A DNA stretch of 57,769 bases from an uncultured bacterium (GCA_964631855.1 CAZWAM010000004.1:3508-61276); one strand, 5' to 3'. Shown: positions 8,036-56,976, numbered from the stretch's first letter. Notes: generated by a model not told the origin, from the sequence alone. Numbers and translations: made by a program.

Positions 8036-8049
8036 AAAAGGAATATATT

Positions 8050-8238
8050 ATGGCTTATAGATGCGATATATGCGGTAAACGGCCTATGTTCGGCCACAAC
8101 ATCAGCCACGCGCACAACGTCACGAAACGCAAATTTATGCCGAACCTGCACCGCGTCCGCGTGCGCGTCAACGGCCGCGTAAAGCGGATCCGGGTATGCA
8201 CGCGATGCCTGAAGGCCGGTAAAGTTCATAAAGTATAA
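8050..8238 (+). CDS. rpmB: 50S ribosomal protein L28
   Basis: 62 aa. [34 protein letters not shown] is the canonical L28 N-terminus. Confidence 0.95.
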
Positions 8239-8256
8239 AACTTGTCGGAGCGCAAT

Positions 8257-8284
8257 AAAAGCCCGCGCGCGGGCTTTTTTTATT
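8257..8284 (+). terminator. Intrinsic terminator after rpmB
   Basis: Stem gcccgcg (8261-8267) / cgcgggc (8268-8274), followed by a T-run from 8275. Confidence 0.7.
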
Positions 8285-8323
8285 TTACGGCCCGGCCCGC
8301 GCCACGTCAAGCCAATTCTCCGC

Positions 8324-8351
8324 TTGACATTTAACGCGCCTCCTCTATAAT
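8324..8351 (+). promoter_or_regulatory. Consensus sigma70-like promoter
   Basis: TTGACA (8324-8329), 16-nt spacer, TATAAT (8346-8351). Confidence 0.55.
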
Positions 8352-8361
8352 CTCAATATAA

Positions 8362-8385
8362 GGCCGCCAAAGCGGCGGCCTTTTT
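8362..8385 (+). terminator. Terminator-like hairpin plus T5 directly downstream of the predicted transcription start site (TSS)
   Basis: ggccgcc (8362-8368), loop aaagc, ggcggcc (8374-8380), then ttttt (8381-8385). It lies about 14 nt before ATG 8399. Confidence 0.4.
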
Positions 8386-17103: not shown

Positions 17104-17176
17104 GGGCCCATAGCTCAGTGGCTAGAGCCACCGGCTCATAACCGGTCGGTCCCAGGTTCGAATCCTGGTGGGCCCA
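17104..17176 (+). tRNA. tRNA with anticodon CAT (elongator Met, or Ile2 after lysidine modification); CCA not encoded
   Basis: Hand-folded cloverleaf. Acceptor GGGCCCA/TGGGCCC, D arm GCTC-AGTGGCTA-GAGC, anticodon arm ACCGG-CTCATAA-CCGGT (CAT at 17137-17139), variable loop CGGTC, T arm CCAGG-TTCGAAT-CCTGG, discriminator A. Confidence 0.9.
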
Positions 17177-17213: not shown

Positions 17214-18683
17214 GTGAAGATGCGCTCGGTATTAGGTGTTGTTGTCTTTTTCGCCGCGGGGCTCCCGGCCTTCGCGCAAGAACCCCCTCCCGCGCCAATA
17301 ACCACTCCCACGCCCGTACCCGCGCCCAAGGCCAAAGACTACCCCGCCTTCGACGGCGGCACGCGCATCGAGTTCTACGCGGAGCAGAACGTCTACCGCG
17401 CCTACCTGGCCAACCCCGCGGACTTCACCCTCCTTCAGGAGACCTTCGTCGCGGGAGACTTCGGCGGCGACCTGAGCTTCGGCGGCTTCAGCTACTCGCG
17501 GAACCGCGGCACGGCCGAGCCCGGGCCGACGGAGCCGGAAGACAAGGCCGGCCTCGACGTCTCGTATACCGCGGGCCTGGGGGGCCGGGCATTCGGGGCC
17601 TACCGCCGGGATTTCCTCGTCGCGGGCGGCGCGTTCGACTTCAACCGCGGCGCCGCGTCTTTCGGGTACAACGGCGAGGCGATAACGGTGGACCCCTTCT
17701 TCGCCGCCGACGAGGGCTATAACGATGTCGACCTGGTGAGCCAAAAATACGGCATCACCGCGGTGGCCGCGGCCGCGCTCGAGCCCCACGCCGTCGGCCT
17801 CTCGTTCTCGCTCACACCGGAGCGTATCGAGGGCGACTACGACTTCGAATACCTGCCGCCGACGAGCGAGGAGGGTATACACCGCGTCGAGAGATTGTGG
17901 GGGCGGCGCGAGGTCAAAGACTACTGCATCAAGGGAGGCTACTCGCTCAGGCCGGGGGAAGATTTCGACGTGGGCGGCGCCTTCGGCCTGCGAATACTGC
18001 GAAGCAACCTGGACTGGCGCGACGAAAGCGCGGAAGAAGTGCCCACGGTCATCACGAAGGAGGGGGAAACCGGAACCTTAAAAATGAAGGGGAGCGCCGT
18101 CACCTTGGGCGGCAACGGCCGCTATAAATTACTCGAGAACCTGCGCGTGGGCGGCGCACTCGCGATGGAGTTCATCCCCGGGATTACGATGGATTGGCAG
18201 GGCGAGACCTGGGACCTCGCGGGCCCGTTCGGTGAGCGGGAAATCGAGGACTACCGGCTCGCGAAGGGGAGCGAACGCCACTACGGGTTCGGCGGCGGCC
18301 TGGCCTTTTATCCCGACGAGAAGACGACGTTGGCGTTCGACTACGGTTACGACAGGTTTAGCGCGTCGGCCGAGGTGTACGACGAAGGGCGTTCCGTGGG
18401 TGACGAGCTCGAGTTCAGCTACTATCACACGTTTACGCGGCTGGGCGTCGAACGTTGGATAATCGACGACCTCGCGGCCAAAGTGGGCTGGGAACAGGAC
18501 CTGTTCAGCTACCCGCGCAACGTCTTCTTCGGCGGCCTCGCTTACAAGTTCGACGACGATTGGTTTATAAACTACGATTATAGAGGAGGTCAATTAACGG
18601 TCAATAACCTATCGCTATTCGTGCCCTTCGACGACGTGGTCAAACCGGCCAGCCACCGGTTCACGGTGGTCCGGTACTTTTAG
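17214..18683 (+). CDS. Large outer-membrane beta-barrel protein, function unknown
   Basis: 489 aa. Signal peptide (VVVFFAAGLPAFAQE), a Pro-rich linker, many short amphipathic strands, C-terminal ...HRFTVVRYF. The start could be ATG 17220, with GAGG 5 nt upstream. Confidence 0.65.
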   Translation: MKMRSVLGVVVFFAAGLPAFAQEPPPAPITTPTPVPAPKAKDYPAFDGGTRIEFYAEQNVYRAYLANPADFTLLQETFVAGDFGGDLSFGGFSYSRNRGTAEPGPTEPEDKAGLDVSYTAGLGGRAFGAYRRDFLVAGGAFDFNRGAASFGYNGEAITVDPFFAADEGYNDVDLVSQKYGITAVAAAALEPHAVGLSFSLTPERIEGDYDFEYLPPTSEEGIHRVERLWGRREVKDYCIKGGYSLRPGEDFDVGGAFGLRILRSNLDWRDESAEEVPTVITKEGETGTLKMKGSAVTLGGNGRYKLLENLRVGGALAMEFIPGITMDWQGETWDLAGPFGEREIEDYRLAKGSERHYGFGGGLAFYPDEKTTLAFDYGYDRFSASAEVYDEGRSVGDELEFSYYHTFTRLGVERWIIDDLAAKVGWEQDLFSYPRNVFFGGLAYKFDDDWFINYDYRGGQLTVNNLSLFVPFDDVVKPASHRFTVVRYF

Positions 18684-18719: not shown

Positions 18720-19757
18720 ATGAAGAAGACGGCGATAATGACGGTAATCGTGGCCGCGGGCTTGATGGGCTGCGGCTCGGACGATGGTCCGGTGGGGCCG
18801 GCCGACGTCGTCTACTGGGACGTCGCGTGGTCGTCGCCGGATACGGTCTTAACCGATATCGAAATGCTGGGCGAGAAATCGGGTTGGGCGTGCGGCTACC
18901 GCTACAACGAAACGACGGGAACGTACGACGGCCTGATCTACCGTTACGCCGGCGATACCTGGGACGTGGCACTCTTCATGCCGGCGGAAATGGGCGCCAA
19001 GCTGATGGCGATCGACTTCTTGGCGGGAAACGACGGCTGGGCGGTGGGGAACCGCGTAGGCGAAGGCATCGAAATGCCGGTCGTGCTTCACTACGACGGG
19101 GAGGCGTGGAACGAGGTCTTTGCCGAGGGTTTGACCAGCGGCCCCCTGAAGCTTTTGGCCGCGGTCGGAGAGAACGACGTCTGGGTATCGGACGGCTTCG
19201 ACTCCTTCCACTACGACGGCATTTGGTGGAACTGGTTCCCGCTGGCCGCGGGGACGGGCGTCGACAGGTGGGTCTTCCCGAACGCACAAACCGGCTGGGC
19301 GGTCAGCTACACTAGCGGCTATTGCTACCGGTGGGACAACGTGCTCGGCTTCTGGGTTTTGGAACCGCAACCGCTCTACGACGCGACGGCGTTCCATTTC
19401 CGGGCCGACGGCTCAGGCGTCTACGCCGATTACGCGAACACGCCGCCGGTGGCGGAACGGGCGAACATCTACTGGCGGGAAGCGGCCGAGGCGCCGATCT
19501 ACCGAAGGATATACTCCACCGGCGTGCCCCGCCAGCTAACGGCGTGCGACTATCTCCCCCCCGACTACTTCTTCTTCGCCGGGCCGAATGCGGCCTTCGA
19601 GGTCGTCGAGGACAACGTAAACCCGCTCGGCTACTTACCGCCGAGCGGCCTGGGCGCCGTCCGGGCCATCAGCATCGCCGCCCGGGGAGACGTCTGGGGC
19701 ATAATGGGGCAGAGCTTGAACGAAGGCCCCTCGTTTATAGTACACAAGGAAATGTAA
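18720..19757 (+). CDS. Lipoprotein with beta-propeller-like repeats (Ycf48/BNR-like, without Asp-boxes)
   Basis: Lipobox AAGLMGC|GS. Recurrent ...GWACGY / GWAVGN / DVWVSDG / GWAVSY ... motifs about 45-50 aa apart. AAGGAG SD sequence upstream. Confidence 0.6.
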   Translation: MKKTAIMTVIVAAGLMGCGSDDGPVGPADVVYWDVAWSSPDTVLTDIEMLGEKSGWACGYRYNETTGTYDGLIYRYAGDTWDVALFMPAEMGAKLMAIDFLAGNDGWAVGNRVGEGIEMPVVLHYDGEAWNEVFAEGLTSGPLKLLAAVGENDVWVSDGFDSFHYDGIWWNWFPLAAGTGVDRWVFPNAQTGWAVSYTSGYCYRWDNVLGFWVLEPQPLYDATAFHFRADGSGVYADYANTPPVAERANIYWREAAEAPIYRRIYSTGVPRQLTACDYLPPDYFFFAGPNAAFEVVEDNVNPLGYLPPSGLGAVRAISIAARGDVWGIMGQSLNEGPSFIVHKEM

Positions 19758-19840: not shown

Positions 19841-20866
19841 TCATTCCCCCGCCATTATGCCGTCGTAGACGGCGCGGGCGTCGCCCTCGTCGCGGGCGCC
19901 GTACAGGAGCGCGCGGCCGTCGCCGAACATCACCACCGATACGCCGCCCGCGGCAATTAACAAAAGGCCGTGGGATTTTTTCACCAGGTAACGGCGGGAG
20001 AGGCGGTCGGCCGTTTCGTCCAGATTCGGCCTTACGCCGCCTCCCGGGAAAATCTCGAAGGCCCGTCCGCCGCAACAACGTCCTACGTAAACGGGGACCC
20101 TTCCCTCGAGAAAATGAAACTCGCGACGGCCACAGGCCGGACAGTCCTCGAGCCGCTTCACGGTAATTGTGGCAACGCGCCCCGGCTCCTCGAGCCGGCT
20201 CAGCCGACCGGCCACGGCGTCGCCCTCGCCCCTTAACAAGGCGAAGGTTAAACCGGCGCCGAGCGCCGCCGTCGCGGCCACGACCGCGGGCGATACCCCC
20301 ACCCGGGCGCAGGAGCCGGCGTCGTCCGCGTCCGCAAGCGAGGGCAACAAACAACGGAGGCAAGGCCCCACGCCCGGGACGACGGCCATCGCCGCGCCGC
20401 GCCGCCCCTCGGCCCCCTGATAGACCAAAGGCCGGCCGGCCTTCACGGCGACGTCGTTTAGCAAGAAGCGGAGGCGGAAGTTATCCGAACAATCGACGAG
20501 CACGTCCAAACCCGCGGCGAGCTCGGATATGTTGTCCGCGTTCGCGAAAGCGACCACGGCCTCGGCGGTCACGTCGCCGTTGATCTCGGCCAGGCGGCGC
20601 GACGCGGCCTCCGCCTTGGGCACGGGTTCCGCGGCGTCCCGCTCGTCGAACAGTTGGGTCCGGTGCAAGTCCAACGCGTCGACGATGTCGCGGTCCACGA
20701 GGCGGAGGTACCCGACGCCGGCGCGCGCGAGTATTTGCGCGTGGGCGGCGCCCGTCCCGCCGACGCCGAAGATGCCTACGCGACCCGCGCGTACGCGGGC
20801 CTGCGCCCTCTCACCCCAAAGTACCTCCTGGTAGCGGTACTTCTCCGTCGGGCGCGTCGTTCTCAA
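19841..20866 (-). CDS. ThiF/MoeB/HesA-family E1-like adenylyltransferase with an extra ~90-aa C-terminal domain
   Basis: YRYQEVLWG..., GIFGVGGTGAAHAQILARAGVGYLRLVDRDIV (nucleotide-binding fold), and two CxxC pairs (CLRC, CPAC). An uncharacterised tail follows: ...VYVGRCCGGRAFEIF...GVSVVMFGDGRALLYGARDEGDA... The TTG start overlaps the radical-SAM gene's TGA stop (TTGA). Confidence 0.8.
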   Translation of the reverse strand: MRTTRPTEKYRYQEVLWGERAQARVRAGRVGIFGVGGTGAAHAQILARAGVGYLRLVDRDIVDALDLHRTQLFDERDAAEPVPKAEAASRRLAEINGDVTAEAVVAFANADNISELAAGLDVLVDCSDNFRLRFLLNDVAVKAGRPLVYQGAEGRRGAAMAVVPGVGPCLRCLLPSLADADDAGSCARVGVSPAVVAATAALGAGLTFALLRGEGDAVAGRLSRLEEPGRVATITVKRLEDCPACGRREFHFLEGRVPVYVGRCCGGRAFEIFPGGGVRPNLDETADRLSRRYLVKKSHGLLLIAAGGVSVVMFGDGRALLYGARDEGDARAVYDGIMAGE

Positions 20867-22311
20867 CGCGTGCCCCCTATAAGGTGCCGCAAGAACCGGC
20901 GACCCGAACGCCAGGTCCGTTTCAACTCCGCCGGCCTTGTGAGGACTTGCGCAAATTTACGCGCGAGGTAACCGAAAGAGAGATAGAACTCACGACGCGC
21001 GCGGTCGCAAAACGCCACGAGCTCCGACGCCGGGAGGTCGGGACGGTCGATAACGCAGTTGTGTTGGCCCTCCGGCGTCAACCAATCGGCGAAAGAATCG
21101 GCCCGGAGGAAACCTCGCTCCTCGGCCCAGCGGTAGAGCGCCGTGCCGGGGTAAGCCATCACCGGGAAGAATTGCGCGGTATCGGGCCGCAGCTCCTTCG
21201 CGAACGCCAGCGTCTCCTCCATCGTCCGCCGCGTCTCGCCCGGGTTGCCGACCATGAAGCAGCCGTGTATCATAATCCCGGCCTTCGCCGCGTCCCCGAA
21301 GAACCGTTCGACGCGCGCGCGGTCGATCCTCTTGTTCATGCTGCGGAGCATCTCGTCGCTGCCGCTCTCGACGCCCACGCACAACAGCCTACATCCGGCG
21401 CGCTTCATCAGCTTGAGCGTCTCGAGGTCGAGGTCGCAGCGGGCGTTCGCGCTCCACTTAAGGCCGAGGTCCGCCTCCGCTATCGCCGCGCAAAGCCGCC
21501 TCGTACGTTCGCGCTCGACGGAAAACGTATCGTCCTCGAACATGACCTCGCGCACGTCGGGCCAGGTCCGCTTGATGAACCGCAACTCCTCCACGACCGC
21601 GGACACGGCCCGCGGCCTATACGAATGGCCGGAGAAGGTCTGGGGGTAAACGCAATATATGCAGTAATTGGGGCAACCGCGCGCGGAAAGTATCGTCACG
21701 ATGGGATAGAGGCTGTGGGCATAAAAATAGTTGTGGACGTCGAGGAAGCGGGCATAAGTTTCGGACACGAAAGGCCACCGGTCCGGGTCCTCGGCTTCCC
21801 GGTCGGGCCCGGCCGTGACCCCGCCGTCAAGCCGCCACGTAACGCCGGGAGCGGTGCCCGGGTTAACGCCCTCGGCCAACGCCTCCGCGAGCTCGAGCAC
21901 GGTCCCCTCGTACTCGCCGCGAAGCACGCCGTCGAGCCACGGGTATTCCGCCAGCGTCCGCTCGGCAAGCACGGAGACGTGTGGGCCGACGAGCACCACC
22001 CTGAGACCCGAGCAGCTCTCCTTAAGCAACCGCGCGACGCGGGCGTCGTTCGCGACGCTGGGCGTGCTCGCAGCTATAACCGCGAGTTCGAACTCTCGCG
22101 CAGCCGCGTCCTCGACGACGCGCTCCAGCCGCCAACGGCCGTCGGCGGGAGCGTCGACCAGCGTCACGTCGTGGCCGGCTTGAATTGCCGCGCCCGCGGC
22201 GTAGGAAAGCCACATCGGGTAGTAGATCGTCCCGCTCTTGGTCACCGCCGGGCTTCGCTGTTCGCGGGAGAATTTGGGAAGGAAGGGGGGATTTAAGAAA
22301 AGTATTTTCAC
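20863..22311 (-). CDS. B12-binding-domain radical SAM enzyme (class B)
   Basis: 482 aa. N-terminal MKILFLNPPF...YYPMWLSYAAG...ASTPS looks like a B12-binding domain. The radical SAM cluster motif is ARGCPNYCIYCVYPQ (CxxxCxxC). Later: FEDDTF and VGVESGSDEML. From memory it resembles HpnJ-like lipid-modifying members; not verified. Confidence 0.85.
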   Translation of the reverse strand: MKILFLNPPFLPKFSREQRSPAVTKSGTIYYPMWLSYAAGAAIQAGHDVTLVDAPADGRWRLERVVEDAAAREFELAVIAASTPSVANDARVARLLKESCSGLRVVLVGPHVSVLAERTLAEYPWLDGVLRGEYEGTVLELAEALAEGVNPGTAPGVTWRLDGGVTAGPDREAEDPDRWPFVSETYARFLDVHNYFYAHSLYPIVTILSARGCPNYCIYCVYPQTFSGHSYRPRAVSAVVEELRFIKRTWPDVREVMFEDDTFSVERERTRRLCAAIAEADLGLKWSANARCDLDLETLKLMKRAGCRLLCVGVESGSDEMLRSMNKRIDRARVERFFGDAAKAGIMIHGCFMVGNPGETRRTMEETLAFAKELRPDTAQFFPVMAYPGTALYRWAEERGFLRADSFADWLTPEGQHNCVIDRPDLPASELVAFCDRARREFYLSFGYLARKFAQVLTRPAELKRTWRSGRRFLRHLIGGTR

Positions 22312-22332
22312 CGCGTTGACGCGCCAAGGGCA

Positions 22333-23049
22333 CTAGTCGGGTAAAGCGGAAAAAATAAACCGACCGCAAGATTCACATCTGTAGAGCTTGCTGCCGGATC
22401 GCAAATCGGCCACGACCTTTGCCGGTATGTTTACGTAACAACCCTGGCATACGCCGTCGGCGGCTACGGCAAAAGCGCCGCCTTGGTAACGCTCGAACAA
22501 GCGTTTATACCCCGCGCGCACCGGCTGAGACAGCGTCGGTATTAGGCGCTTGCGTTTCTCCTCCACCTCGATCAGCTGTACCTCGACATCCTTCAAGCGC
22601 GCCCTCGCTTCCTCGTTGGCGCGCGTAACTTCGGCCTTTAGTTGCTCGAGCCCCCCGAGGCGCTCGTCGATACTCCGCCGCGTCTTCTCGACGCCCTCCA
22701 AAAGCTCGAGCAGTTTATCTTCCGTACCCGAGATTTGCTCCCTCGTCACCTTGATTTCGTTTTGGAGGCTCTGGTATTCCTTATTCGTTTTGACCGACTC
22801 GAGTTGAACGCGGTATTTCGCCAACAGCTGCGTTTTATCGTCGATCGAAGCCTCGAGGCGGCGCCTCTCACGTTGCTTCTCCTCTAATACTCGTTGTAAC
22901 TTAGCCAACTCCTCTTGCCGGGCGTCAAGGTCGCCATCCCGTTTCTCCACCTCCGCCGGCAACGCCGCGGTGAGAGCGTCCAGCTCCTTCTTGCGCGCGT
23001 CGAGTTCCGACAAAGCTATTAAACACTCGAGGTCGCTTCGTTCATCCAT
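22333..23049 (-). CDS. Coiled-coil protein with C-terminal C4 zinc ribbon (COG1579/DUF164-like)
   Basis: 238 aa. Long heptad-rich region, then ...CQGCYVNIPAKVV...YRCESCGRFIF. Confidence 0.75.
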   Translation of the reverse strand: MDERSDLECLIALSELDARKKELDALTAALPAEVEKRDGDLDARQEELAKLQRVLEEKQRERRRLEASIDDKTQLLAKYRVQLESVKTNKEYQSLQNEIKVTREQISGTEDKLLELLEGVEKTRRSIDERLGGLEQLKAEVTRANEEARARLKDVEVQLIEVEEKRKRLIPTLSQPVRAGYKRLFERYQGGAFAVAADGVCQGCYVNIPAKVVADLRSGSKLYRCESCGRFIFSALPD

Positions 23050-23061
23050 AGCCTCTCACAT

Positions 23062-24267
23062 TCAGCTAAGAAGGTGGCGCAGCCTGAGGACGATCCTGGG
23101 GTTCTTCCAAAGAGCCTTCAAAAACGTCGCGAATATCTCCGACGACTTTATCTTGCTGACGTCCAACTTATCGCGCAATATCGCGACCGTGTCGTCTATC
23201 TCGGAATCTGCCATCGCGAGGATAACACGTCGGACCTTATAATGCTGTTTGTAGCGCCGGCCATAGGTTTCCATCCACTCTTCCTGGTAGCCCCGGAGTT
23301 CCCCCGCCAGGTCGCCGCTCGCCAACCCCCGCCGTATCGCGCGCGCCGCGGATTGCCCCGCCATCAAAGCCTGGCAAATACCTTCTCCCGAGAACGGGTC
23401 CGCCTGGCGGGCCGCGTCGCCCACGAGTGCGACGTAACCGTTCACTATGCTCGGCAAGGGTTTACACGCCGGTACGGCGCCGGTCCGGACGGCGACGACT
23501 TTGGCGTCCGGGAAGCGCCCCGCTACGAACGCGTCGAGGTAATGGATAGGCCCGCGGCCCCGTGCCTCCGTCGGCGTAATGCCGACGCCGACGGTGTGGA
23601 GGCCGTCACCCTTGGGGAACACCCAGGCGTATCCCCCCGGCGCGAAGGAACGGCCTAGAAAAAAGTGGATATAATCCGGCGGGTCTTCGGCGGCGTCGGC
23701 CAAAATGTACTCGGCGCAAACGTCCATGTCGCCCGCCGAAACCGTAGTCGCGAGGCCCGCAGCCCGACCCACCGCCGACTCGACGCCGTCGGCCGCCACT
23801 ACGGCACGACACGAGACCGTACGCCCAAAAAGGCCGTCGTGTGCGACGTCGACCTCGACGACGCCGCCCGTGCAACGAACGTCGCGAGCCTCGGCCTTGA
23901 GGAGCGTCGTCGCGCCCGCCGCGGCGGCACGAGCGAACAGGTCGCGTTCGAATATCTCCCGGTCTAGTATATACCCCACGTTTGCGTAATCGCGGCGAAC
24001 CGTAATGCCCGCCGGCGAGTGCCCCATGCCGCCGTTGACGACGGCACTAACCCATCTCTTATCCAACTCGACGAGCGATTCGAACTTCCGGCGTGGAACC
24101 CCCTCGCCGCAACGGACCGGTCGCCCGACCTCTTTCTTTCGCTCGAGCAGCAGCGTTTTCACGCCGTTGCGCGCCAACGACAACGCCGCGGCCGAGCCCG
24201 CCGGCCCGCCCCCCACGACCACGACGTCGTAGCTTCCTTTTAATACCTCTTCAACGTACGAAGCCAT
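23062..24267 (-). CDS. Geranylgeranyl reductase family flavoprotein
   Basis: 401 aa. YDVVVVGGGPAGSAAALSLARNGVKTLLLERKKEVGRPVRCGEG (FAD fold plus the characteristic xCGEG/xCGG motif), and VALVGDAARQADPFSGEGI. Confidence 0.8.
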   Translation of the reverse strand: MASYVEEVLKGSYDVVVVGGGPAGSAAALSLARNGVKTLLLERKKEVGRPVRCGEGVPRRKFESLVELDKRWVSAVVNGGMGHSPAGITVRRDYANVGYILDREIFERDLFARAAAAGATTLLKAEARDVRCTGGVVEVDVAHDGLFGRTVSCRAVVAADGVESAVGRAAGLATTVSAGDMDVCAEYILADAAEDPPDYIHFFLGRSFAPGGYAWVFPKGDGLHTVGVGITPTEARGRGPIHYLDAFVAGRFPDAKVVAVRTGAVPACKPLPSIVNGYVALVGDAARQADPFSGEGICQALMAGQSAARAIRRGLASGDLAGELRGYQEEWMETYGRRYKQHYKVRRVILAMADSEIDDTVAILRDKLDVSKIKSSEIFATFLKALWKNPRIVLRLRHLLS

Positions 24268-24271
24268 CGCA

Positions 24272-25132
24272 TCACGAAAGGGTTTCCCAGTATACGCCGG
24301 CGAAGAATACGAAAATCAGGAACTTCATCAAACGCGCGGTCGAGCCGGCCAACAACGGATCGGGCTCACGGCGCCGCAGGTTTAATATCGTGTAAATTAA
24401 CACAAGGCCCCCCACGGCCGCCACGAACGCAAGGTTACGCCGGGAATACTCCTCGAGACGGTAAGAAATTACGGACACGGCCACCGCGGCCAGAGCGAAA
24501 GCCCCGGCCACCACTACCGGGAATCGTCCCCCGCCTGCGGCTACGGTCCTTCTCCCCACGAGCTCGTCCGCGCGCCGGTTCTCGACGTCCCGAAAAACAC
24601 TCGCGGCCAAGGCTATCAAACCGCCGACCACGGCGGCGATTATCGCCCGCCCCCCGGCGCCGCCGAACCATAACCACCCGTAACAAACGGGGAAAGCCAC
24701 CACCCCCGCGGCGAGAACGTTTCGAGCGAAATACGATTTGTCGAAAAAATAGTTGATCAACAAAACGAACGCCGCCGTAAAAAGCGCGGCGGCGAAAGGG
24801 CGGAAACCTAAAAAAGCCGCGGCCGTTAACCCAGCCGCGAGCAAGATAAAGCCCAACCACTTCGCTTCGCCGGGGCGAACTAAGCCCCGCGCGATCGGAT
24901 TGCTCGGGTTCGCCAAAACGCGGCTGCGACGGTGGAACCAATCGCCGTTCACGAAAGTGCCCGCTATTACCGTCGCGACCGCGACGGCGCCGAACGTTAT
25001 CGTGCCGCGGGGGGGGCCGCCCGCAAGGCCCGCGCCCAGCAAGGCGCCCGCGAACGCCAAACCCCAATCCGCAGGTCGCATCAAACGCAAAAACGCCAAC
25101 GCCGCGGCGTTAAGGTCCCGTTTACGTGGCAT
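24272..25132 (-). CDS. UbiA-superfamily prenyltransferase-like membrane protein (divergent first Asp-rich motif)
   Basis: 286 aa, about 8 TM segments. The first motif region reads AGTFVNGDWFHRRSRVLANPSNPIARG; the second reads FRDVENRRADELVGRRTVA. Confidence 0.65.
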   Translation of the reverse strand: MPRKRDLNAAALAFLRLMRPADWGLAFAGALLGAGLAGGPPRGTITFGAVAVATVIAGTFVNGDWFHRRSRVLANPSNPIARGLVRPGEAKWLGFILLAAGLTAAAFLGFRPFAAALFTAAFVLLINYFFDKSYFARNVLAAGVVAFPVCYGWLWFGGAGGRAIIAAVVGGLIALAASVFRDVENRRADELVGRRTVAAGGGRFPVVVAGAFALAAVAVSVISYRLEEYSRRNLAFVAAVGGLVLIYTILNLRRREPDPLLAGSTARLMKFLIFVFFAGVYWETLS

Positions 25133-25173
25133 ACCCGCTGCGAACTACCTTAATAAAATCTCCACCTACGCCC

Positions 25174-25779
25174 TTAACGCTTACCCCGGGAGGCCGCAAT
25201 CTTGGCTCGCGTGTAGAATATCCTCTGCACCGCGGTAATATGAGAGAGCACTGCCAGGAGCAACAGCGCTACCAAAGCCCCGTATCCGCCCACCAGGTAG
25301 CCCAAAGCGAGGAGGACCACCCTCTCGGGCCGTTCCATTATACCTACCTTACAACCTTCGATCAAACTCTCGGCCCGGGCCTTGGTATAAGAAACGAACA
25401 CCGACCCGGTTAGAACCAAGACGGTCAGGACGGCCATTAGGCCGTCGCGGGCCGCAGCGTAAAAATAGACTAAACCGGTCAAGTAGGCGGCCTCGCTATA
25501 TCGATCAATAACGGAGTCCATAAACGCGCCGAAAGGACTACCGAGTTCGTTGGCGCGAGCCACGGCGCCGTCCACCATGTCCGCGAAGCCCGCGGCCAGC
25601 ACGAGCAGCGCGCCCACACGCAACCGCCCGAACGCGAATGCTATCCCCGCGGCCCCCGCCAAGGCCAAACCCAGCAACGTGAAAACGCTCGGGCCTATGC
25701 CGAGCCGGCCGATTAAACGGGCCGGCGGATAGAGTATCTTCTTGCTTAACCGCCGGCCTAAGTCGTGAAAAGCTTGCAA
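25174..25779 (-). CDS. CDP-alcohol phosphatidyltransferase family protein
   Basis: 201 aa. Exact signature D-MV-DG-AV-AR-ANELGSPF-G-AFM-D-SVI-D (DxxDGxxAR-x8-GxxxDxxxD). Confidence 0.85.
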   Translation of the reverse strand: MQAFHDLGRRLSKKILYPPARLIGRLGIGPSVFTLLGLALAGAAGIAFAFGRLRVGALLVLAAGFADMVDGAVARANELGSPFGAFMDSVIDRYSEAAYLTGLVYFYAAARDGLMAVLTVLVLTGSVFVSYTKARAESLIEGCKVGIMERPERVVLLALGYLVGGYGALVALLLLAVLSHITAVQRIFYTRAKIAASRGKR

Positions 25780-25792
25780 TTCGCTTAAGTTT

Positions 25793-26698
25793 CTAAGGTT
25801 TACCGACTTCCGTCGGCTGCCCGGACAACCGCTGAGCCTTATTTATTTTATCCTGAGCGATGAAACTAGTCACCAGGTCGTACTCCGCGCGGATAGCCAG
25901 GATGAAGCTCTCTAACGCCAACGGCTTTAACGCCGCGTCACCTTTCGGGATTTTCCTTAGCGCCTGCCGCACCCGGCCGCCCAGCACCTTATCACCGCCT
26001 ACGTCGACGAAGGCAAAGACCTCCACCGGGACCTTTTCCGTATAGGTCAACGCCTCGGTTCCCTTGACCGGTTTGCGCGAGGGAAACAGGTTCGCCGGTA
26101 CGCAACCGTATTCGACCTCACCCGCGGCCACCCCGGCGATGACTTCGTCCGCCGTCCCGTTGGGCGCTTCGCGGAGGTCGAAGTCGAGGTCGAGGTCGAG
26201 GCCGTTGCGGTCGAAGAACATCTTCTGGGACAGATAGCCGTCGAGCGAGTTCTTCGAGACGATCATAATCGAACTACCCTTCAGCTCGGGGACTTCACGG
26301 ATTTTTTGGGTCCCTCCCTCGGGGACAATAATACATCCCTGGGCCATCGAGCCTTTATCGGCGTAATTAGCCTTGACTAGCACGATGCACCCGTCGGCGA
26401 CCTCTGCATAATCCAACGGGTTCGCGAAGACGAACGCGGCCTTGCCTTCTTTGACCAACGAAGAGAATTCCTCGCGCGATTTCGTGGGTTGAAATCTAAA
26501 AGGGCGGCCGACCCGTTCCTCCAAATACGCCGCCAGCGGCTCGAACTTCTTGCCCGCTTCGGCCTTCTCGAACGTCGGCCCGAGCGCAACCACGATGGCC
26601 TCCATCTCGGAGACGCCCTTACCCTTCTTACAACCCGGGTTAGCGATTAAAACCGCTACCAAACCCGCGGCAACTACGATCGTCCACGAACGCTTCAT
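25793..26698 (-). CDS. PhnD-like (phosphate/phosphonate-type) periplasmic substrate-binding lipoprotein, with no transporter partner nearby
   Basis: Start preferred at ATG 26698 (MKRSWTIVVAAGLVAVLIANPGC lipobox; GGGAG SD sequence 8 nt upstream). ...FVFANPLDYAEV...GYLSQKMFF... has a type-2 binding-protein look. Confidence 0.55.
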   Translation of the reverse strand: MKRSWTIVVAAGLVAVLIANPGCKKGKGVSEMEAIVVALGPTFEKAEAGKKFEPLAAYLEERVGRPFRFQPTKSREEFSSLVKEGKAAFVFANPLDYAEVADGCIVLVKANYADKGSMAQGCIIVPEGGTQKIREVPELKGSSIMIVSKNSLDGYLSQKMFFDRNGLDLDLDFDLREAPNGTADEVIAGVAAGEVEYGCVPANLFPSRKPVKGTEALTYTEKVPVEVFAFVDVGGDKVLGGRVRQALRKIPKGDAALKPLALESFILAIRAEYDLVTSFIAQDKINKAQRLSGQPTEVGKP

Positions 26699-26738
26699 AT
26701 TGCTCGCTCCCGTCAACGTAAGAGCCGCCTTTTTTAAA

Positions 26739-26767
26739 AGTTTACCAGCGGCTCAGGAGGGTGTCAA
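26739..26767 (-). promoter_or_regulatory. Possible internal promoter
   Basis: Minus strand: TTGACA (26767-26762), 17-nt spacer, TAAACT (26744-26739). Confidence 0.35.
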
Positions 26768-27774: not shown

Positions 27775-29808
27775 CTATCTCGCGACGGCCAACCGGCGCG
27801 CCGCGGAACCCGCCGACGAGGCGAAACAGCAGACGTAAACGCCCGGCGGCAGCGGCCGGCCCGCGCCGTCGGCAACCGACCACGTTATAACGTTCTCCCC
27901 CGCGCGAGCGCCGCGCGCCACCGTCGCTATGCGCCGGCCGGCGAGGTCGAAAACCGCGAGCTCCGCCCCGGGGTCGTCCGAGGGGAGCGAGAACGCGAAA
28001 GTTACGCTCCCGGACGCCGGGTTCGGCCTCGGTTGGGCAAAAGCAAACGGCGCGGCCTTTACGCCCGCCCGGGCCTCCGCCGGGCCAAAGGTACGGCTCG
28101 CGCCGGCGCGCGGTACGTACTCCAGCCAATAGCGGTAAGTGATACCGCCCTCGACGTCCCGGTCGAAGAAGCGGAAGGGCGGCCGGCCGCTGACCGGCGC
28201 CCGGTTTATTCTCGCGAGGCTTTTACCCGGGCGTCCGCGGTAGACGTTAAAAACGCCGGCCAACCCGCCCTCGCCCGGAGCCCACGACAGAAGGATACCC
28301 TCCGCGCGGCCCGCGGCTCGGAAATATCTCAGCTCGACGGGCGTCAGTAACTTCATAGCGGCCTCGTAAACGTCGAGCCGGCCGGCGCCGTAGTCGTTAT
28401 CCTTGCCGGGAGGGCCCAGGTCCAACGCGGTGATTTGCATTATCTCCGATAAATCCTCGGGGGTGAGGTTCTCGTCGACGTCCAAAAGCAGCGCGGCGCA
28501 ACCTGCGGCGTGGGGCGACGCCATCGACGTCCCGGACATATCCCTATACCCCGAATTGTCGTTGTGCCGACAGGATTTAATCTGGTACCCGGGAGCCGCG
28601 ACATCCGGCTTCAGAAGGCCCATCTTGGCGCCGTTCTCGTAAGGGTAGTCGCGCCACGGGTCGATGGTCTCCCAACTGCTCGGGCCCATGCTTGAGAAAT
28701 AGGCATACACGTCGTCCTGCGTCGTCGCGCCGACGGCCATCATCGACGCCAGGCCGCCCTTCAACTTCTGGTCGGGGTGGAGCCACGGCGGCGGACAATT
28801 GCCGGGAGCCGAGACGTTCCAGGGCAGGGGGTCCGTCGTATTGACCGAACTGCGGTAGTTCCCCGCCGATTTAAACTGGATGAAGCCGGCGCTGAGCTGT
28901 ATCTCGGAGGCGTAACGCCACGTCGCGTAGTCCGGGTTGGTATAAACGCGCCAGCCGAATGAGAGCGTTCCCAGGTCCGCGCCCTGACCGACGGCCCACT
29001 GCCAGGCTTCCCACACCGTGGACTCGACGCCGCTTATTTTACAAATCATAATCGTGGCATCGGGCGCGACGCCGGCTTGAGTACCGGCCGTGCCGTCGGA
29101 GGCCACGATGCCGCACACGTGGGTGCCGTGGCCGTTGTAATCCATGGTCTCTTCGTTATTGTCGGCGAAGTTCCAACCGTGCTTCGGGAAATTCGGGCCG
29201 CCCTCCCACATGTGGTCCCGGAGGTCGAGGTGGTTGTAATTGCACCCCGTATCGAAGACCGCAACCGTAACCCCCTCGCCCCGGTAGTCCATCGTCCAGA
29301 CGTCGGGGGCGCGGACTTTGGCGACGCCCCAAGCTATCTCGTCGCGGGAAGCGTCCGCCGCCGCGGCCTCGAATTCCAGGACCTGGTCGAGCGGGATCTC
29401 CTCATCCCAGTCGACGCTGCGGACGTCGCGCCGCGCGGCGAGGCGGCGGGCGATATCGGCGTCCACCCAGGCGTTTATAGCGTTCACGAGCCACATCACG
29501 CGCACGTCGCGCGCGCGGGCCGCCCGCTCGGCTTCCGCGAGTAAATCCAAAACGCCCCCTTGCGTATCACGCGCGAATCGCCGGAGCTCGTCCACGACGA
29601 CCGCCCGACGTTCCCCGCGCGAAAGGCCCCGCGCAATCGAAGCCATAACCTCCGGGTCGTATCGTTCCCTCATCATTATGTTGACCCGTACCAGCTCGCC
29701 CGACTCGAGGGTTTGGAGGCGAGCGGCGAGCTGAGGCGTCATACCGTCGAAGCCGCGCGCGGGTACGACGGCCGCGAGGGCGATAATTACAATTAAAATA
29801 GTCCTCAT
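27775..29808 (-). CDS. Secreted S8 (subtilisin-like) serine peptidase with Por/T9SS-type C-terminal sorting domain
   Basis: Catalytic triad contexts VFDTGCNYNH (Asp), HGTHVCGIV (His) and SGTSMASPHAAG (Ser). Start preferred at ATG 29808 (MRTILIVIIALAAV; GGAGG 5 nt upstream). C-terminus: ...PNPASGSVTFAFSLP...LAVFDLAGRRIATV...GVYVCCF...RRLAVAR. Confidence 0.9.
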   Translation of the reverse strand: MRTILIVIIALAAVVPARGFDGMTPQLAARLQTLESGELVRVNIMMRERYDPEVMASIARGLSRGERRAVVVDELRRFARDTQGGVLDLLAEAERAARARDVRVMWLVNAINAWVDADIARRLAARRDVRSVDWDEEIPLDQVLEFEAAAADASRDEIAWGVAKVRAPDVWTMDYRGEGVTVAVFDTGCNYNHLDLRDHMWEGGPNFPKHGWNFADNNEETMDYNGHGTHVCGIVASDGTAGTQAGVAPDATIMICKISGVESTVWEAWQWAVGQGADLGTLSFGWRVYTNPDYATWRYASEIQLSAGFIQFKSAGNYRSSVNTTDPLPWNVSAPGNCPPPWLHPDQKLKGGLASMMAVGATTQDDVYAYFSSMGPSSWETIDPWRDYPYENGAKMGLLKPDVAAPGYQIKSCRHNDNSGYRDMSGTSMASPHAAGCAALLLDVDENLTPEDLSEIMQITALDLGPPGKDNDYGAGRLDVYEAAMKLLTPVELRYFRAAGRAEGILLSWAPGEGGLAGVFNVYRGRPGKSLARINRAPVSGRPPFRFFDRDVEGGITYRYWLEYVPRAGASRTFGPAEARAGVKAAPFAFAQPRPNPASGSVTFAFSLPSDDPGAELAVFDLAGRRIATVARGARAGENVITWSVADGAGRPLPPGVYVCCFASSAGSAARRLAVAR

Positions 29809-29865
29809 AACGGCCTCCAAAAAACGCCGGCCCCGTTGGCATACCGGCGATTCATACCCCAAACG

Positions 29866-32191: not shown

Positions 32192-32197
32192 AATACG

Positions 32198-32225
32198 ATT
32201 ATACCAAACTTACCACAAATAGCAA
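32198..32225 (-). promoter_or_regulatory. Promoter-like element abutting the paralog-1 start codon
   Basis: Minus strand: TTGCTA (32225-32220), 16-nt spacer, TATAAT (32203-32198). ATG 32191 lies only 6 nt past the -10 box. Confidence 0.4.
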
Positions 32226-32399
32226 ATCGCACCCCGAGAAACGCGCTCGCGCCGGACGAAAATAAATTATGAAGAAGCGACGACGCGTCAAAGGTCGTCC
32301 TTCTTCCGACGCGTAATTCTATATTAATTTTAATAAAAATGCGGCCGCCCGCCCGCGTAAGGCAGGCGACCTGGCCGGACGTCACGCGAGGCGCTGCCC

Positions 32400-34901: not shown

Positions 34902-34924
34902 TCCCGCCGCCTCCTTCAACGTAT

Positions 34925-34953
34925 ATTTAATGACATCCCGCCCGGCTAGTCAA
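34925..34953 (-). promoter_or_regulatory. Possible promoter for paralog 2
   Basis: Minus strand: TTGACT (34953-34948), 17-nt spacer, TTAAAT (34930-34925). Confidence 0.4.
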
Positions 34954-34958
34954 GTTAT

Positions 34959-34996
34959 AAAAAAATGCCCGCCCGCGCAACCCGGGCTTTTTTTTT
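34959..34996 (-). terminator. Bidirectional-looking terminator between paralogs 3 and 2
   Basis: An A7 run, a GC hairpin (gcccg...cgggc within tgcccgcccgcgcaacccgggc), then a T9 run. On the minus strand the hairpin is followed by ATTTTTTT. Confidence 0.45.
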
Positions 34997-35025
34997 GCCA
35001 GTACTACGTACGAAAGCCTTTTTGC

Positions 35026-42652: not shown

Positions 42653-42674
42653 GACATCACTCCCTTCTCGCACA

Positions 42675-56975: not shown

Positions 56976-56976
56976 A

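What the first reader, a model, noticed from the sequence alone, without database searches (positions are those of the whole stretch)
19841..25779. Compact operon combining isoprenoid-lipid-type genes (CDP-alcohol phosphatidyltransferase, UbiA prenyltransferase, geranylgeranyl reductase) with a B12 radical SAM and a ThiF-like E1
**Gene order.** On the minus strand the gaps run from -4 to 41 nt: CDP-alcohol phosphatidyltransferase (201 aa), UbiA-family prenyltransferase, geranylgeranyl-reductase flavoprotein, zinc-ribbon coiled-coil protein, class-B radical SAM, ThiF-like protein.

**Precedent.** The first three genes are the same enzyme families that archaea use to attach the second prenyl chain (DGGGP synthase), saturate the chains, and add polar head groups. 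FCB-group bacteria have been reported to carry archaeal-type ether-lipid genes. Several class-B radical SAM enzymes modify lipid tails or head groups (hopanoid HpnJ/HpnP/HpnR, archaeal GDGT ring synthases).

**Interpretation.** The cluster may therefore encode synthesis and tailoring of an unusual isoprenoid-based membrane lipid in a bacterium.

**Alternatives.** Menaquinone prenylation plus side-chain reduction, or chlorophyll-type ChlG/ChlP-like chemistry, cannot be excluded from sequence alone.
Basis: partly seen in the sequence, partly recalled or inferred. Interest (0 to 1): 0.65.

Follow-up and report, generated by a model that had tools for sequence, protein, structure and literature searches.

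The report
Archaeal-type lipid genes, degenerate prenyltransferase
An uncultured bacterium (Coatesbacteria type) keeps a conserved gene string that joins archaeal-style isoprenoid-lipid genes to a sugar-modifying-type radical enzyme, but its prenyltransferase has lost its catalytic residues, so the pathway is not the simple archaeal ether-lipid route first proposed.

Summary
The six minus-strand genes, their order and their gaps (-4 to 41 nt) are confirmed, and all six family assignments hold.

**Conserved core.** Comparative context shows the block is composite. UbiA-like + GGR, followed by a CT398 zinc-ribbon protein + B12 radical SAM (rSAM), is kept across four Coatesbacteria-type lineages, with UbiA identity down to 26%. 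Two of those lineages carry Wza/Wzz polysaccharide-export genes in the middle.

**Lineage-specific neighbours.** The CDP-alcohol transferase and ThiF sit next to the core only in this window's lineages.

- The UbiA-like protein is closest to DGGGP synthase in both sequence and fold.
- GGR is closest to archaeal DGGGPL reductases and to FCB-type bacterial homologues.
- The CDP-alcohol transferase is closest to archaetidyl-/phosphatidyl-inositol-phosphate synthases.
- A KSB1 genome independently clusters UbiA, ferredoxin, GGR and a CDP-alcohol transferase.

**Evidence against.**
- The window's UbiA-like clade has lost the near-invariant Asp motifs (NDxxDxxxD is GDxxHxxxR here), yet it is under purifying selection.
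- The rSAM is an HpnJ sister. In other phyla its family sits next to GT2 and polyprenyl glycosylphosphotransferase genes, not lipid-tail genes.
- The window holds no GGGPS, G1PDH or CarS.

**Verdict.** Partly supported. This is a new variant of a known kind, of moderate interest.

The parts
26739..26767 (-). Promoter-like site (TTGACA-17-TAAACT with a TG extension) in the 76-nt gap above the binding-protein gene. It is a possible start of the transcription unit.
   Evidence: Consensus scan only. Function was not shown.
25793..26716 (-). Orphan PhnD-type periplasmic binding lipoprotein. It lies 13 nt upstream of the CDP-alcohol transferase and is probably the first gene of the unit.
   Evidence: PF12974 scores 98.5 bits. 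The N-terminus carries a lipobox...LIANPGC. It is conserved directly upstream in lineages A and A' and absent in lineages B and B'.
25174..25779 (-). CDP-alcohol phosphatidyltransferase of the inositol-phosphate-lipid synthase type (AIP/PIP-synthase-like).
   Evidence: PF01066 matches. NCBIfam archaetidylinositol-phosphate synthase scores 153.9 (cut-off 180) and PIP synthase scores 133.2 (cut-off 170). PDB PIP synthases 5d92, 6h53 and 6wm5 match at E about 1e-25. The D67xxDGxxARx8GxxxDxxxD motif is intact. dN/dS is 0.10-0.13.
24272..25132 (-). UbiA-fold membrane protein derived from the DGGGP-synthase branch, with both Asp-rich catalytic motifs degenerate.
   Evidence: PF01040 scores 60.5. DGGGPS-type NCBIfam models score only 76, 60 and 43 against cut-offs of 269-353. 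The only PDB sequence hit is 6m31. The AF2 model has pLDDT 94.4, and its best fold matches are 7bpu/6m31 at TM 0.70-0.72. The near-invariant residues N, D, D, D, Y, E, D are G63, D64, H67, R71, I126, S178, N185 here. dN/dS is 0.12-0.22.
23062..24267 (-). Geranylgeranyl-reductase-family flavoprotein of the archaeal DGGGPL-reductase type.
   Evidence: TIGR02032 scores 216, above its cut-off of 158.8. PDB 3oz2 (T. acidophilum DGGGPL reductase) matches at E 9e-59 over the full length. The GxGxxG, RCGE and YAWVFPx8GVG motifs are present. The nearest relatives outside the phylum are Methanocellales, Methanoperedens, KSB1, Edwardsbacteria and Cloacimonadota.
22333..23049 (-). CT398/HP0958-type coiled-coil protein with a C4 zinc ribbon. 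It always lies directly upstream of the radical SAM gene in this phylum.
   Evidence: PF24481 and PF02591 match. Two CxxC motifs are present. The Zn-rSAM pair is kept in lineages A, A', B and B'. None of 62 radical SAM loci in other phyla has it.
20863..22311 (-). B12-binding radical SAM enzyme, a member of an HpnJ-sister family.
   Evidence: PF02310 and PF04055 match. HpnJ TIGR03471 scores 378.6 over the full length, below its cut-off of 577.6; the next family scores 141. C213xxxCxxC is present. Relatives at 46-55% identity occur in at least 574 species genomes.
19841..20866 (-). ThiF/MoeB-type E1-like adenylyltransferase with a C-terminal extension. It overlaps the radical SAM gene by 4 nt and is a lineage-specific neighbour.
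   Evidence: PF00899 scores 168.7. PRK12475 scores 190.6, below its cut-off of 510. PDB ThiF and MoeB match at E about 1e-23. GxGxxG and two CxxC motifs are present. It adjoins the core in lineages A and A' only. The window holds no GG-ended small partner ORF.

Best explanation
This is a phylum-specific, selectively maintained envelope-lipid gene string of Coatesbacteria-type bacteria. It is built from three layers.

**1. Isoprenoid-lipid module.** It has three genes:
- an AIP/PIP-synthase-like CDP-alcohol phosphatidyltransferase;
- a membrane protein derived from DGGGP synthase;
- an archaeal-type geranylgeranyl (DGGGPL-type) reductase.

**2. Obligate partner pair.** A CT398-type zinc-ribbon protein is followed by an HpnJ-sister B12 radical SAM enzyme.

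**3. Lineage-specific add-ons.** These are a PhnD-like lipoprotein upstream and a ThiF-like E1 downstream.

**Most likely working (inferred).** The cell makes a polar lipid with isoprenoid chains. GGR saturates the chains. The CDP-alcohol transferase installs an inositol-phosphate-type head group from a CDP-activated lipid. The radical SAM enzyme remodels a sugar or cyclitol head group, or a lipid-linked glycan, by HpnJ-like chemistry rather than modifying the tails.

In this window's lineage the UbiA-like protein has lost the Mg2+/diphosphate-binding aspartates. It is therefore probably not the prenyl-diphosphate transferase of the pathway. It may survive as a lipid-binding partner or scaffold, or as an enzyme with changed chemistry. 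The prenyl-transfer step must then come from elsewhere in the genome.

**Shown:** gene content, conservation, family placement, motif loss and purifying selection. **Inferred:** substrates, products and the link to the radical SAM enzyme.
For: **Placement of the three lipid genes**
- Searches give the family and fold placement.
- 146 of the 150 sequences in the nearest-relative set (window protein plus 149 representatives) match DGGGPS-type models.
- the closest GGR relatives outside the phylum are euryarchaeal DGGGPL reductases and homologues from KSB1, Edwardsbacteria and Cloacimonadota.

**Independent clustering elsewhere**
- KSB1 has UbiA-Fd-GGR-CDP-alcohol transferase; Edwardsbacteria has UbiA-GGR.

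**Conservation of the core**
- UbiA-GGR...Zn-rSAM is kept in lineages A, A', B and B' with different flanks.
- Identities between this window and locus L008 (lineage B'): UbiA 26%, GGR 44.5%, Zn 37%, rSAM 60%.

**Motif loss with retained function**
- Motif loss.
- dN/dS is 0.12-0.22, in the same range as the neighbouring genes.
- The catalytic motifs of the other enzymes are intact.

**Radical SAM family**
- It scores closest to HpnJ (378-453 bits). In other phyla it is followed by a GT2 in 43 of 62 loci and by a polyprenyl glycosylphosphotransferase in 24 of 62.

**Literature**
- FCB bacteria carry GGGPS and DGGGPS, plus euryarchaeal-type GGRs. Cloacimonetes enzymes make archaeal-type lipid in E. 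coli without CarS or G1PDH (PMC7852524; PMC6431249).
Against: - No equivalog cut-off is met for DGGGPS, AIP synthase, DGGGPL reductase or HpnJ.
- The UbiA-like protein lacks its catalytic residues, so the central archaeal-lipid step is unaccounted for.
- The 57.8-kb window has no GGGPS, G1PDH, CarS, inositol-1-phosphate synthase or polyprenyl synthase. The genome-wide check could not be run.
- In lineages B and B' the operon carries Wza/Wzz polysaccharide-export genes and no CDP-alcohol transferase. That points towards a glycoconjugate role.
- All four lineages belong to one phylum, so the synteny evidence is not fully independent.
- NJ bootstrapping does not recover the A and B UbiA proteins as one clade (9/200).
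Confidence: 0.42

Rival explanations
1. The string is a lipid-linked glycan or carrier-lipid pathway. The UbiA-like/GGR pair makes or saturates a polyprenyl-phosphate (dolichol-like) carrier, or a lipid anchor for an exported envelope polysaccharide. The HpnJ-like radical SAM enzyme modifies the sugar attached to it. The membrane phospholipids themselves stay ordinary.
For: - In lineages B and B' the operon reads UbiA-GGR-Wza(Poly_export)-Wzz-Zn-rSAM.
- The radical SAM family sits next to GT2 and TIGR03025-type polyprenyl glycosylphosphotransferase genes in many phyla.
- Cloacimonadota GGR sits next to an ArnC-like polyprenyl-phosphate glycosyltransferase and a UDP-sugar pyrophosphorylase.
- Archaeal GGR also saturates dolichol phosphate (Naparstek 2012, as cited in PMC10821996).
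- UbiA-fold enzymes include decaprenyl-phosphate phosphoribosyltransferase (fold hit 8j8j).
Against: - Wza and Wzz are absent from the block in this window's lineage.
- The UbiA proteins score much higher on DGGGPS-type models than on DPPR-synthase models (151 against 43 bits for L022).
- A phospholipid head-group enzyme (CDP-alcohol transferase) adjoins the block here and in KSB1.
Confidence: 0.25
2. All six genes form one pathway for an unusual isoprenoid membrane lipid: UbiA acts as an active DGGGP synthase, the radical SAM enzyme tailors lipid tails (GDGT-ring-synthase, Tes or HpnP/R-like), and ThiF takes part.
For: - The gaps are tight or overlapping.
- The nine-gene order is kept in lineages A and A'.
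- The three lipid genes have archaeal-lipid best hits.
Against: - The UbiA Asp motifs are lost.
- The radical SAM enzyme is closest to HpnJ, a head-group ring-contraction enzyme. HpnR scores only 85 bits and the ladderane-type lipid radical SAM model 125 bits.
- The family's context elsewhere is glycan genes.
- ThiF is absent from lineages B and B' and from 62 of 62 other radical SAM loci.
- No ubiquitin-like partner gene is present.
Confidence: 0.1
3. There is no common pathway. The string is a conserved syntenic run of unrelated envelope and housekeeping genes, co-transcribed for convenience. It continues upstream into Usp, CoaD and secreted peptidases.
For: - The minus-strand run continues without a strand switch from 19841 to about 52996.
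- CoaD and Usp are part of the conserved order in lineages A and A'.
- The CT398-type zinc-ribbon protein has no known lipid role.
- All the evidence comes from a single phylum.
Against: - Between lineages A and B every flank changes, yet UbiA-GGR and Zn-rSAM stay together, even though UbiA identity is only 26%.
- UbiA-GGR adjacency recurs in KSB1 and Edwardsbacteria with a different UbiA subfamily.
Confidence: 0.18
4. The genes serve quinone or chlorophyll chemistry: MenA/UbiA-type prenylation plus MenJ- or ChlP-type side-chain reduction.
For: GGR gives secondary hits to BchP/ChlP (146.6 bits) and MenJ (72 bits). UbiA gives weak hits to BchG/ChlG (25 and 20 bits).
Against: - All these scores are far below the hits to the archaeal-lipid families and far below their own cut-offs.
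- The window's UbiA-like protein matches no MenA or UbiA model at E<0.01.
- The window has no quinone-ring or tetrapyrrole genes.
- The best fold match is DGGGPS.
Confidence: 0.04

Closest known systems
Archaeal ether-lipid enzymes in FCB-group bacteria (GGGPS/DGGGPS/GGR of Ca. Cloacimonetes; Villanueva et al. 2021, PMC7852524; Coleman et al. 2019, PMC6431249)
   Same: - A bacterium of an uncultured, FCB-like phylum carries a DGGGPS-branch UbiA protein.
- It also carries a GGR of the euryarchaeal type. That GGR is 37.6% identical to a Cloacimonadota GGR and 39-41% identical to KSB1 and Edwardsbacteria GGRs.
- CarS and G1PDH were not seen here, as in Cloacimonetes.
   Different: - The UbiA-like protein has lost the catalytic Asp motifs.
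- The genes are clustered with an AIP/PIP-synthase-like enzyme, a zinc-ribbon protein, an HpnJ-like radical SAM enzyme and ThiF.
- No ferredoxin gene lies next to GGR, unlike in KSB1 and Cloacimonadota.
- The presence of GGGPS is untested.
M. jannaschii DGGGP synthase (PDB 6m31/7bpu) and the UbiA superfamily
   Same: - It has the same nine-helix UbiA fold, with TM 0.70-0.72.
- 6m31 is the only PDB sequence hit.
- Pfam PF01040 is passed.
   Different: - Identity is 20%.
- Motif 1 (NDIFDIEID) reads NGDWFHRRS(R) here.
- Motif 2 (KDFEDMEGD) reads RDVENRRAD here.
- Seven of the 14 columns that are at least 90% conserved in the 150-sequence nearest-relative alignment are changed.
HpnJ (hopanoid BHT-cyclitol-ether radical SAM enzyme) and archaeal calditol synthase Cds
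   Same: - It has a B12-binding domain plus a radical SAM core.
- It aligns over the full length with the HpnJ model (378.6 bits), far above any other family.
- Like HpnJ with HpnI, relatives in other phyla are paired with a GT2 glycosyltransferase.
- HpnJ and Cds are proposed to contract a lipid-bound sugar ring (PMC13459092).
   Different: - The score is below the HpnJ cut-off of 577.6.
- No hopanoid genes are nearby.
- Here the neighbours are a zinc-ribbon protein and UbiA/GGR, not a GT2.
- The relationship to Cds could not be tested because no Cds sequence was available.
Archaetidylinositol-phosphate synthase and bacterial phosphatidylinositol-phosphate synthase
   Same: - The CDP-alcohol motif is intact.
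- These are the best NCBIfam and PDB matches.
- The nearest relative outside the phylum found by the pattern scan lies on an archaeal contig, at 34% identity.
   Different: - The scores are below both equivalog cut-offs (153.9 against 180; 133.2 against 170).
- No inositol-1-phosphate synthase or phosphatase gene is nearby.
- The lipid substrate (CDP-archaeol or CDP-DAG) is unknown.

Membership tests
UbiA prenyltransferase superfamily (PF01040) | UbiA fold and the Pfam gathering score | tested here: met
   PF01040 scores 60.5, above 34.2. The AF2 model has pLDDT 94.4. The top fold hits are 7bpu/6m31, 4tq3 and 4od5, with TM 0.63-0.72.
UbiA prenyltransferase superfamily (PF01040) | First Asp-rich motif, NDxxDxxxD, which binds Mg2+ and the prenyl diphosphate | tested here: not met
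   The window has G63, D64, H67 and R71 where 141-142 of 143 nearest representatives have N, D, D and D. The same loss is seen in all relatives at 65-93% identity and in P0144, P0145 and P0293.
UbiA prenyltransferase superfamily (PF01040) | Second Asp-rich motif (DxxDxxxD) and conserved Tyr and Glu residues | tested here: not met
   The window reads RDVENRRAD. The central Asp is Asn185. E178 is Ser and Y126 is Ile. Only D189 (and the first Asp of the motif) is kept.
DGGGP synthase (NCBIfam PRK12882/12883/12884) | Equivalog score cut-off | tested here: not met
   The scores are 59.7, 43.4 and 75.8 bits against cut-offs of 296, 353 and 269. These are still the top three families. The lineage-B' orthologue by synteny scores 134, 99 and 151.
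DGGGP synthase (NCBIfam PRK12882/12883/12884) | A GGGP-supplying partner (GGGPS/PcrB) in the same genome | not testable with these tools
   None lies in the 57.8-kb window. The whole genomes CP070633.1 and CP070755.1 could not be read. Coleman et al. report that all 12 FCB-group phyla they surveyed, a set that includes Zixibacteria, have GGGPS and DGGGPS orthologues.
Geranylgeranyl reductase family (TIGR02032) | Subfamily cut-off, FAD GxGxxG motif, catalytic Cys, and YxWxFP...GxG motif | tested here: met
   The score is 216, above 158.8. G19GGPAG, R52CGE and Y213AWVFPx8GVG are present. PDB 3oz2 matches at E 9e-59.
Digeranylgeranylglycerophospholipid reductase equivalogs (NF041160/NF041080) | Equivalog score cut-off | tested here: not met
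   The scores are 200.4 against 780 and 141.8 against 580. Substrate specificity therefore remains open.
Archaetidylinositol-phosphate / phosphatidylinositol-phosphate synthase | CDP-alcohol motif Dx2DGx2ARx8Gx3Dx3D | tested here: met
   The motif reads D67MVDGAVARANELGSPFGAFMDSVID.
Archaetidylinositol-phosphate / phosphatidylinositol-phosphate synthase | Equivalog score cut-off | tested here: not met
   NF040950 scores 153.9 against 180. NF045883 scores 133.2 against 170.
HpnJ (TIGR03471) | Equivalog score cut-off and a hopanoid gene context | tested here: not met
   The score is 378.6 against 577.6. None of the window ORFs of at least 150 aa that were scanned matched a squalene-hopene cyclase or hpn family. 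Relatives in Desulfobacterales score 453.
Class B (B12-binding) radical SAM enzymes | N-terminal B12-binding domain plus a CxxxCxxC radical SAM core | tested here: met
   PF02310 scores 56.3 and PF04055 scores 76.6. C213PNYCIYC is present.
ThiF/MoeB E1-like adenylyltransferases | ThiF domain with a nucleotide-binding GxGxxG motif and zinc CxxC pairs | tested here: met
   PF00899 scores 168.7. G34VGGTG, C169LRC and C242PAC are present. PDB ThiF and MoeB match at E about 1e-23.
ThiF/MoeB E1-like adenylyltransferases | A cognate small carrier protein ending in GG (ThiS/MoaD/Ub-like) encoded nearby | tested here: not met
   The window has no plausible GG-ended ORF of 55-130 aa. The three found are Arg-rich shadow ORFs.

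The most novel reading that the evidence does not exclude
Coatesbacteria-type bacteria make a saturated isoprenoid-chain lipid whose head group is a carbocyclic, ether-linked cyclitol. It would be analogous to hopanoid BHT-cyclitol ether or archaeal calditol, and would be formed by the HpnJ-sister radical SAM enzyme.

The DGGGPS-derived protein would have become a non-catalytic lipid-binding subunit of this machinery.

The same radical SAM family, paired with GT2 and a phosphoglycosyl transferase, would make carbocyclic sugars on lipid-linked glycans in hundreds of other anaerobic bacteria and in DPANN archaea.
Probability: 0.1. Interest if true: 0.8.

Novelty: new variant of a known kind. Interest (0 to 1): 0.5.

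Why it matters
Archaeal-type lipid genes in FCB-type bacteria bear on the 'lipid divide'. This locus adds three points.

1. It extends such genes to another uncultured phylum, in a conserved operon with a head-group synthase.
2. A DGGGPS homologue can lose its catalytic aspartates and still be kept under selection. Gene-presence surveys that count 'DGGGPS homologues' as evidence for archaeal lipids can therefore over-call.
3. It exposes a large, uncharacterised HpnJ-sister radical SAM family tied to lipid-linked glycan genes. That family could be a source of unrecognised cyclitol-type biomarkers.

Tried and rejected
- **GGGPS, G1PDH, CarS, inositol-1-phosphate synthase and polyprenyl synthase.** I looked for them among the window ORFs of at least 150 aa that look like real genes (overlapping and shadow ORFs were not scanned). 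None was found. Whole-genome checks of the closed relatives CP070633.1 and CP070755.1 were not possible with these tools.
- **Metagenome scan with the CDP-alcohol transferase.** It returned almost only same-lineage loci. The one distant long contig was archaeal and had no lipid neighbours.
- **NJ bootstrap tree of UbiA proteins.** It supports monophyly of the motif-degenerate clade (198/200). It does not join that clade to the canonical Coatesbacteria UbiA proteins (9-16/200). A long branch is the likely cause, but I did not test this. Orthology therefore rests on synteny and on phmmer rank.
- **Calditol synthase paper (PMC6305003).** It is not held, so the relationship to Cds stays untested.
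- **Pseudogene idea for the UbiA-like gene.** Rejected: dN/dS is 0.12-0.22 and the length is conserved in the 23 close homologues found.
- **Quinone or chlorophyll roles.** Rejected as the leading explanation on model ranking.
- **ThiF as part of a ubiquitin-like system.** Considered, but no carrier gene was found.
- **Promoter and terminator scans.** These are consensus matches only.

Full report
**1. Observation**

The window has six abutting minus-strand ORFs at exactly the coordinates given, with gaps of 41, 4, 12, 21 and -4 nt. Pfam confirms every family:
- CDP-OH_P_transf
- UbiA
- GGR_cat with FAD_binding_3
- CT398 coiled coil with a C4 zinc ribbon
- B12-binding with Radical_SAM
- ThiF

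A PhnD-type binding lipoprotein (25793-26716) lies 13 nt upstream. The first real gap (76 nt) lies above that gene and holds a promoter-like site. Usp, CoaD and secreted peptidases continue on the same strand. Window GC is about 0.58-0.68. The nearest genomes are labelled Ca. Coatesbacteria, Zixibacteria or simply 'bacterium'.

**2. What each protein is**

*CDP-alcohol transferase*
- It has an intact Dx2DGx2ARx8Gx3Dx3D motif.
- Its best models are archaetidylinositol-phosphate synthase (153.9 bits, cut-off 180) and PIP synthase (133.2, cut-off 170).
- PDB PIP synthases match at E about 1e-25.

*GGR*
- It passes the GGR subfamily cut-off (216 against 158.8) and keeps the FAD, Cys and YxWxFP motifs.
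- Its best PDB match by far is Thermoplasma DGGGPL reductase 3oz2 (E 9e-59).
- Outside its own phylum, its closest relatives (36-41% identity) are Methanocellales, Methanoperedens and Syntropharchaeales reductases, and homologues from KSB1, Edwardsbacteria and Cloacimonadota.
- This matches the report that Cloacimonetes GGRs are euryarchaeal-like (PMC7852524).

*UbiA-like protein*
- It is very isolated. Among 1.84 billion representatives, only 318 hit at E<1e-3 and 11 at E<1e-10.
- Its best NCBIfam models are the three DGGGPS-type ones, but at 76, 60 and 43 bits against cut-offs of 269-353.
- Its only PDB sequence hit is M. jannaschii DGGGPS.
- A confident AF2 model (pLDDT 94.4) matches DGGGPS best, at TM 0.70-0.72.
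- 146 of the 150 sequences in its nearest-relative set (itself plus 149 representatives) match DGGGPS-type models.

*Radical SAM enzyme*
- It aligns end to end with HpnJ (378.6 bits, cut-off 577.6). All other class-B families score 142 or less.

*ThiF*
- It is a generic MoeB/ThiF-type E1 with two CxxC pairs. No GG-ended carrier gene is nearby.

**3. The key anomaly**

In the 143 nearest UbiA representatives outside the Coatesbacteria-type lineages, several residues are almost invariant:
- the first motif, N-D-x-x-D-x-x-x-D, is conserved in 141-142 of 143 sequences;
- Y126 is conserved in 143 of 143;
- E178, D185 and D189 are conserved in at least 134 of 143.

The window protein has G63, D64, H67, R71, I126, S178, N185 and D189 at these positions. 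Two metal- and diphosphate-binding aspartates are replaced by His and Arg.

The same degenerate pattern is fixed in all relatives at 65-93% identity and in deeper members of the clade (P0144, P0145, P0293). That clade is monophyletic in 198 of 200 NJ bootstraps.

The gene is not decaying. The close homologues found are mostly full-length (286-290 aa; a few shorter entries cover only part of the query). dN/dS is 0.12-0.22, like its neighbours. From established knowledge of UbiA enzymes, these aspartates are needed for Mg2+-dependent prenyl-diphosphate ionisation. I therefore infer that this protein is not a conventional prenyl-diphosphate transferase.

**4. Comparative context**

I distinguish four lineages.

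| Lineage | Example loci | Gene order | UbiA motif state |
|---|---|---|---|
| A | this window; L001-L007; L015-L021, including closed genome CP070633.1 | CoaD-Usp-SBP-CDP-UbiA*-GGR-Zn-rSAM-ThiF | degenerate |
| A' | L097; UbiA 36% identical | same nine genes, then cytochromes | degenerate |
| B | L095; UbiA 31% identical | UbiA-GGR-Wza-Wzz-Zn-rSAM-hypothetical-Aldedh | one Asp lost |
| B' | L008, L012, L022 = closed Coatesbacteria genome CP070755.1; UbiA 26%, GGR 44.5%, Zn 37%, rSAM 60% identical | divergent AlaRS, then UbiA-GGR-Wza-Wzz-Zn-rSAM-3xPPIase-Lgt | canonical |

Sources.

- The conserved core is therefore UbiA + GGR and Zn + rSAM.
- The CDP-alcohol transferase, SBP and ThiF are neighbours only in lineages A and A'.
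- The lineages that lack Wza/Wzz in the block are the ones with degenerate UbiA motifs.

**5. The radical SAM family at large**

A scan of GTDB species genomes found at least 574 species with a relative at 46-55% identity. They include Desulfobacteria, Planctomycetota, Nitrospirota, Fibrobacterota/Chitinispirillaceae, WOR-3, Stahlbacteria and DPANN Iainarchaeum.

My neighbourhood census covered 62 loci outside the Coatesbacteria type that have at least 1.5 kb of downstream sequence:
- 43 have a GT2 glycosyltransferase starting right after the radical SAM gene;
- 24 have a polyprenyl glycosylphosphotransferase (TIGR03025, 282-314 bits);
- none has a Zn-ribbon, ThiF or CDP-alcohol transferase gene;
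- UbiA or GGR hits are sporadic (2 each).

The Desulfobacterales member scores 453 bits on HpnJ.

HpnJ, and by proposal calditol synthase, contract a lipid-bound sugar ring (PMC13459092). The family therefore looks like a head-group or glycan-modifying enzyme, not a tail-modifying one.

**6. Independent support for a UbiA-GGR-head-group module**

- In a KSB1 genome, the GGR orthologue sits in UbiA-ferredoxin-GGR-CDP-alcohol transferase (PgsA-like).
- In Edwardsbacteria the order is UbiA-GGR.
- In Cloacimonadota it is ferredoxin-GGR-TM protein-ArnC-like GT2-UDP-sugar pyrophosphorylase.

The UbiA proteins in these loci belong to another subfamily, so the pairing has arisen or persisted more than once. 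The Cloacimonadota context, together with the finding that Haloferax GGR saturates both dolichol phosphate and diether lipids (cited in PMC10821996), keeps the carrier-lipid alternative open.

**7. Synthesis**

- *Shown:* a real, conserved, selectively maintained string; DGGGPS-branch, archaeal-GGR-type and AIP/PIP-synthase-type placement of the three lipid genes; loss of the UbiA catalytic motifs; the HpnJ-sister identity and glycan-gene affinity of the radical SAM enzyme; the lineage-specific position of ThiF and the CDP-alcohol transferase.
- *Inferred:* the core acts on one isoprenoid-chain envelope lipid. GGR saturates it. The CDP-alcohol transferase gives it an inositol-phosphate-type head group in this lineage. 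The radical SAM enzyme remodels a sugar or cyclitol moiety.
- *Unresolved:* which enzyme performs the prenyl transfer; whether the product is a membrane diether lipid or a glycan carrier or anchor; and what ThiF and the zinc-ribbon protein do.

The finding is a new variant of the known 'archaeal-type lipid genes in FCB-like bacteria' theme. Its interest is moderate, carried mainly by the conserved pseudo-prenyltransferase and by the large uncharacterised radical SAM family.

Noticed in passing
window 20863-22311 (-); loci L023-L094: The HpnJ-sister B12 radical SAM family occurs in at least 574 species genomes across many anaerobic phyla and in DPANN archaea. It is usually followed by a GT2 glycosyltransferase and often by a polyprenyl glycosylphosphotransferase. 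This appears to be an uncharacterised, widespread three-gene module.
   Followed up: partly
window 30026-42673 (-): Five tandem paralogous genes of about 720-890 aa lie here. The two that I scanned (30026-32191 and 40157-42673) encode BNR/Sortilin-type beta-propeller plus M28 peptidase domains. A secreted S8 subtilase lies at 27775-29862. Relatives keep the same array.
   Followed up: no
window 46145-47044 (-): A single ORF fuses a response-regulator receiver domain to an HSP20/alpha-crystallin domain. It lies next to DnaK and a NYN-domain protein.
   Followed up: no
window 25793-26716 (-): An orphan PhnD-type (PF12974) substrate-binding lipoprotein has no ABC permease or ATPase nearby. It is conserved directly upstream of the CDP-alcohol transferase in lineages A and A'. 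Its ligand and role are unknown.
   Followed up: partly
window 17214-18683 (+) and 18720-19757 (+): Two proteins with no Pfam or NCBIfam match converge on the ThiF gene. They are syntenic in every lineage-A locus, and tRNA-Met lies just upstream at 17104-17176.
   Followed up: no
L100 8867-11792; L099 9832-14131; L101 4053-6408: Other FCB-type phyla cluster the same GGR type with lipid genes. KSB1 has UbiA-ferredoxin-GGR-PgsA-like CDP-alcohol transferase. Edwardsbacteria has UbiA-GGR. Cloacimonadota has ferredoxin-GGR-TM protein-ArnC-like GT2-UDP-sugar pyrophosphorylase. Coatesbacteria have no ferredoxin gene next to GGR.
   Followed up: partly
window 4920-10363 and 55782-57741: Envelope-glycan genes lie elsewhere in the window: two GT4 genes, a GT2, an epimerase/dehydratase-GT2 fusion (8384-10363), a DegT-type aminotransferase and a CMP-sugar-type cytidylyltransferase. 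None resembles the GT2 that accompanies the radical SAM family in other phyla.
   Followed up: partly
L015, L018, L019, L022 record titles: Genomes that carry near-identical versions of this locus are labelled variously as Zixibacteria, Coatesbacteria or 'bacterium' in public records. The taxonomic labels for this lineage are inconsistent.
   Followed up: no
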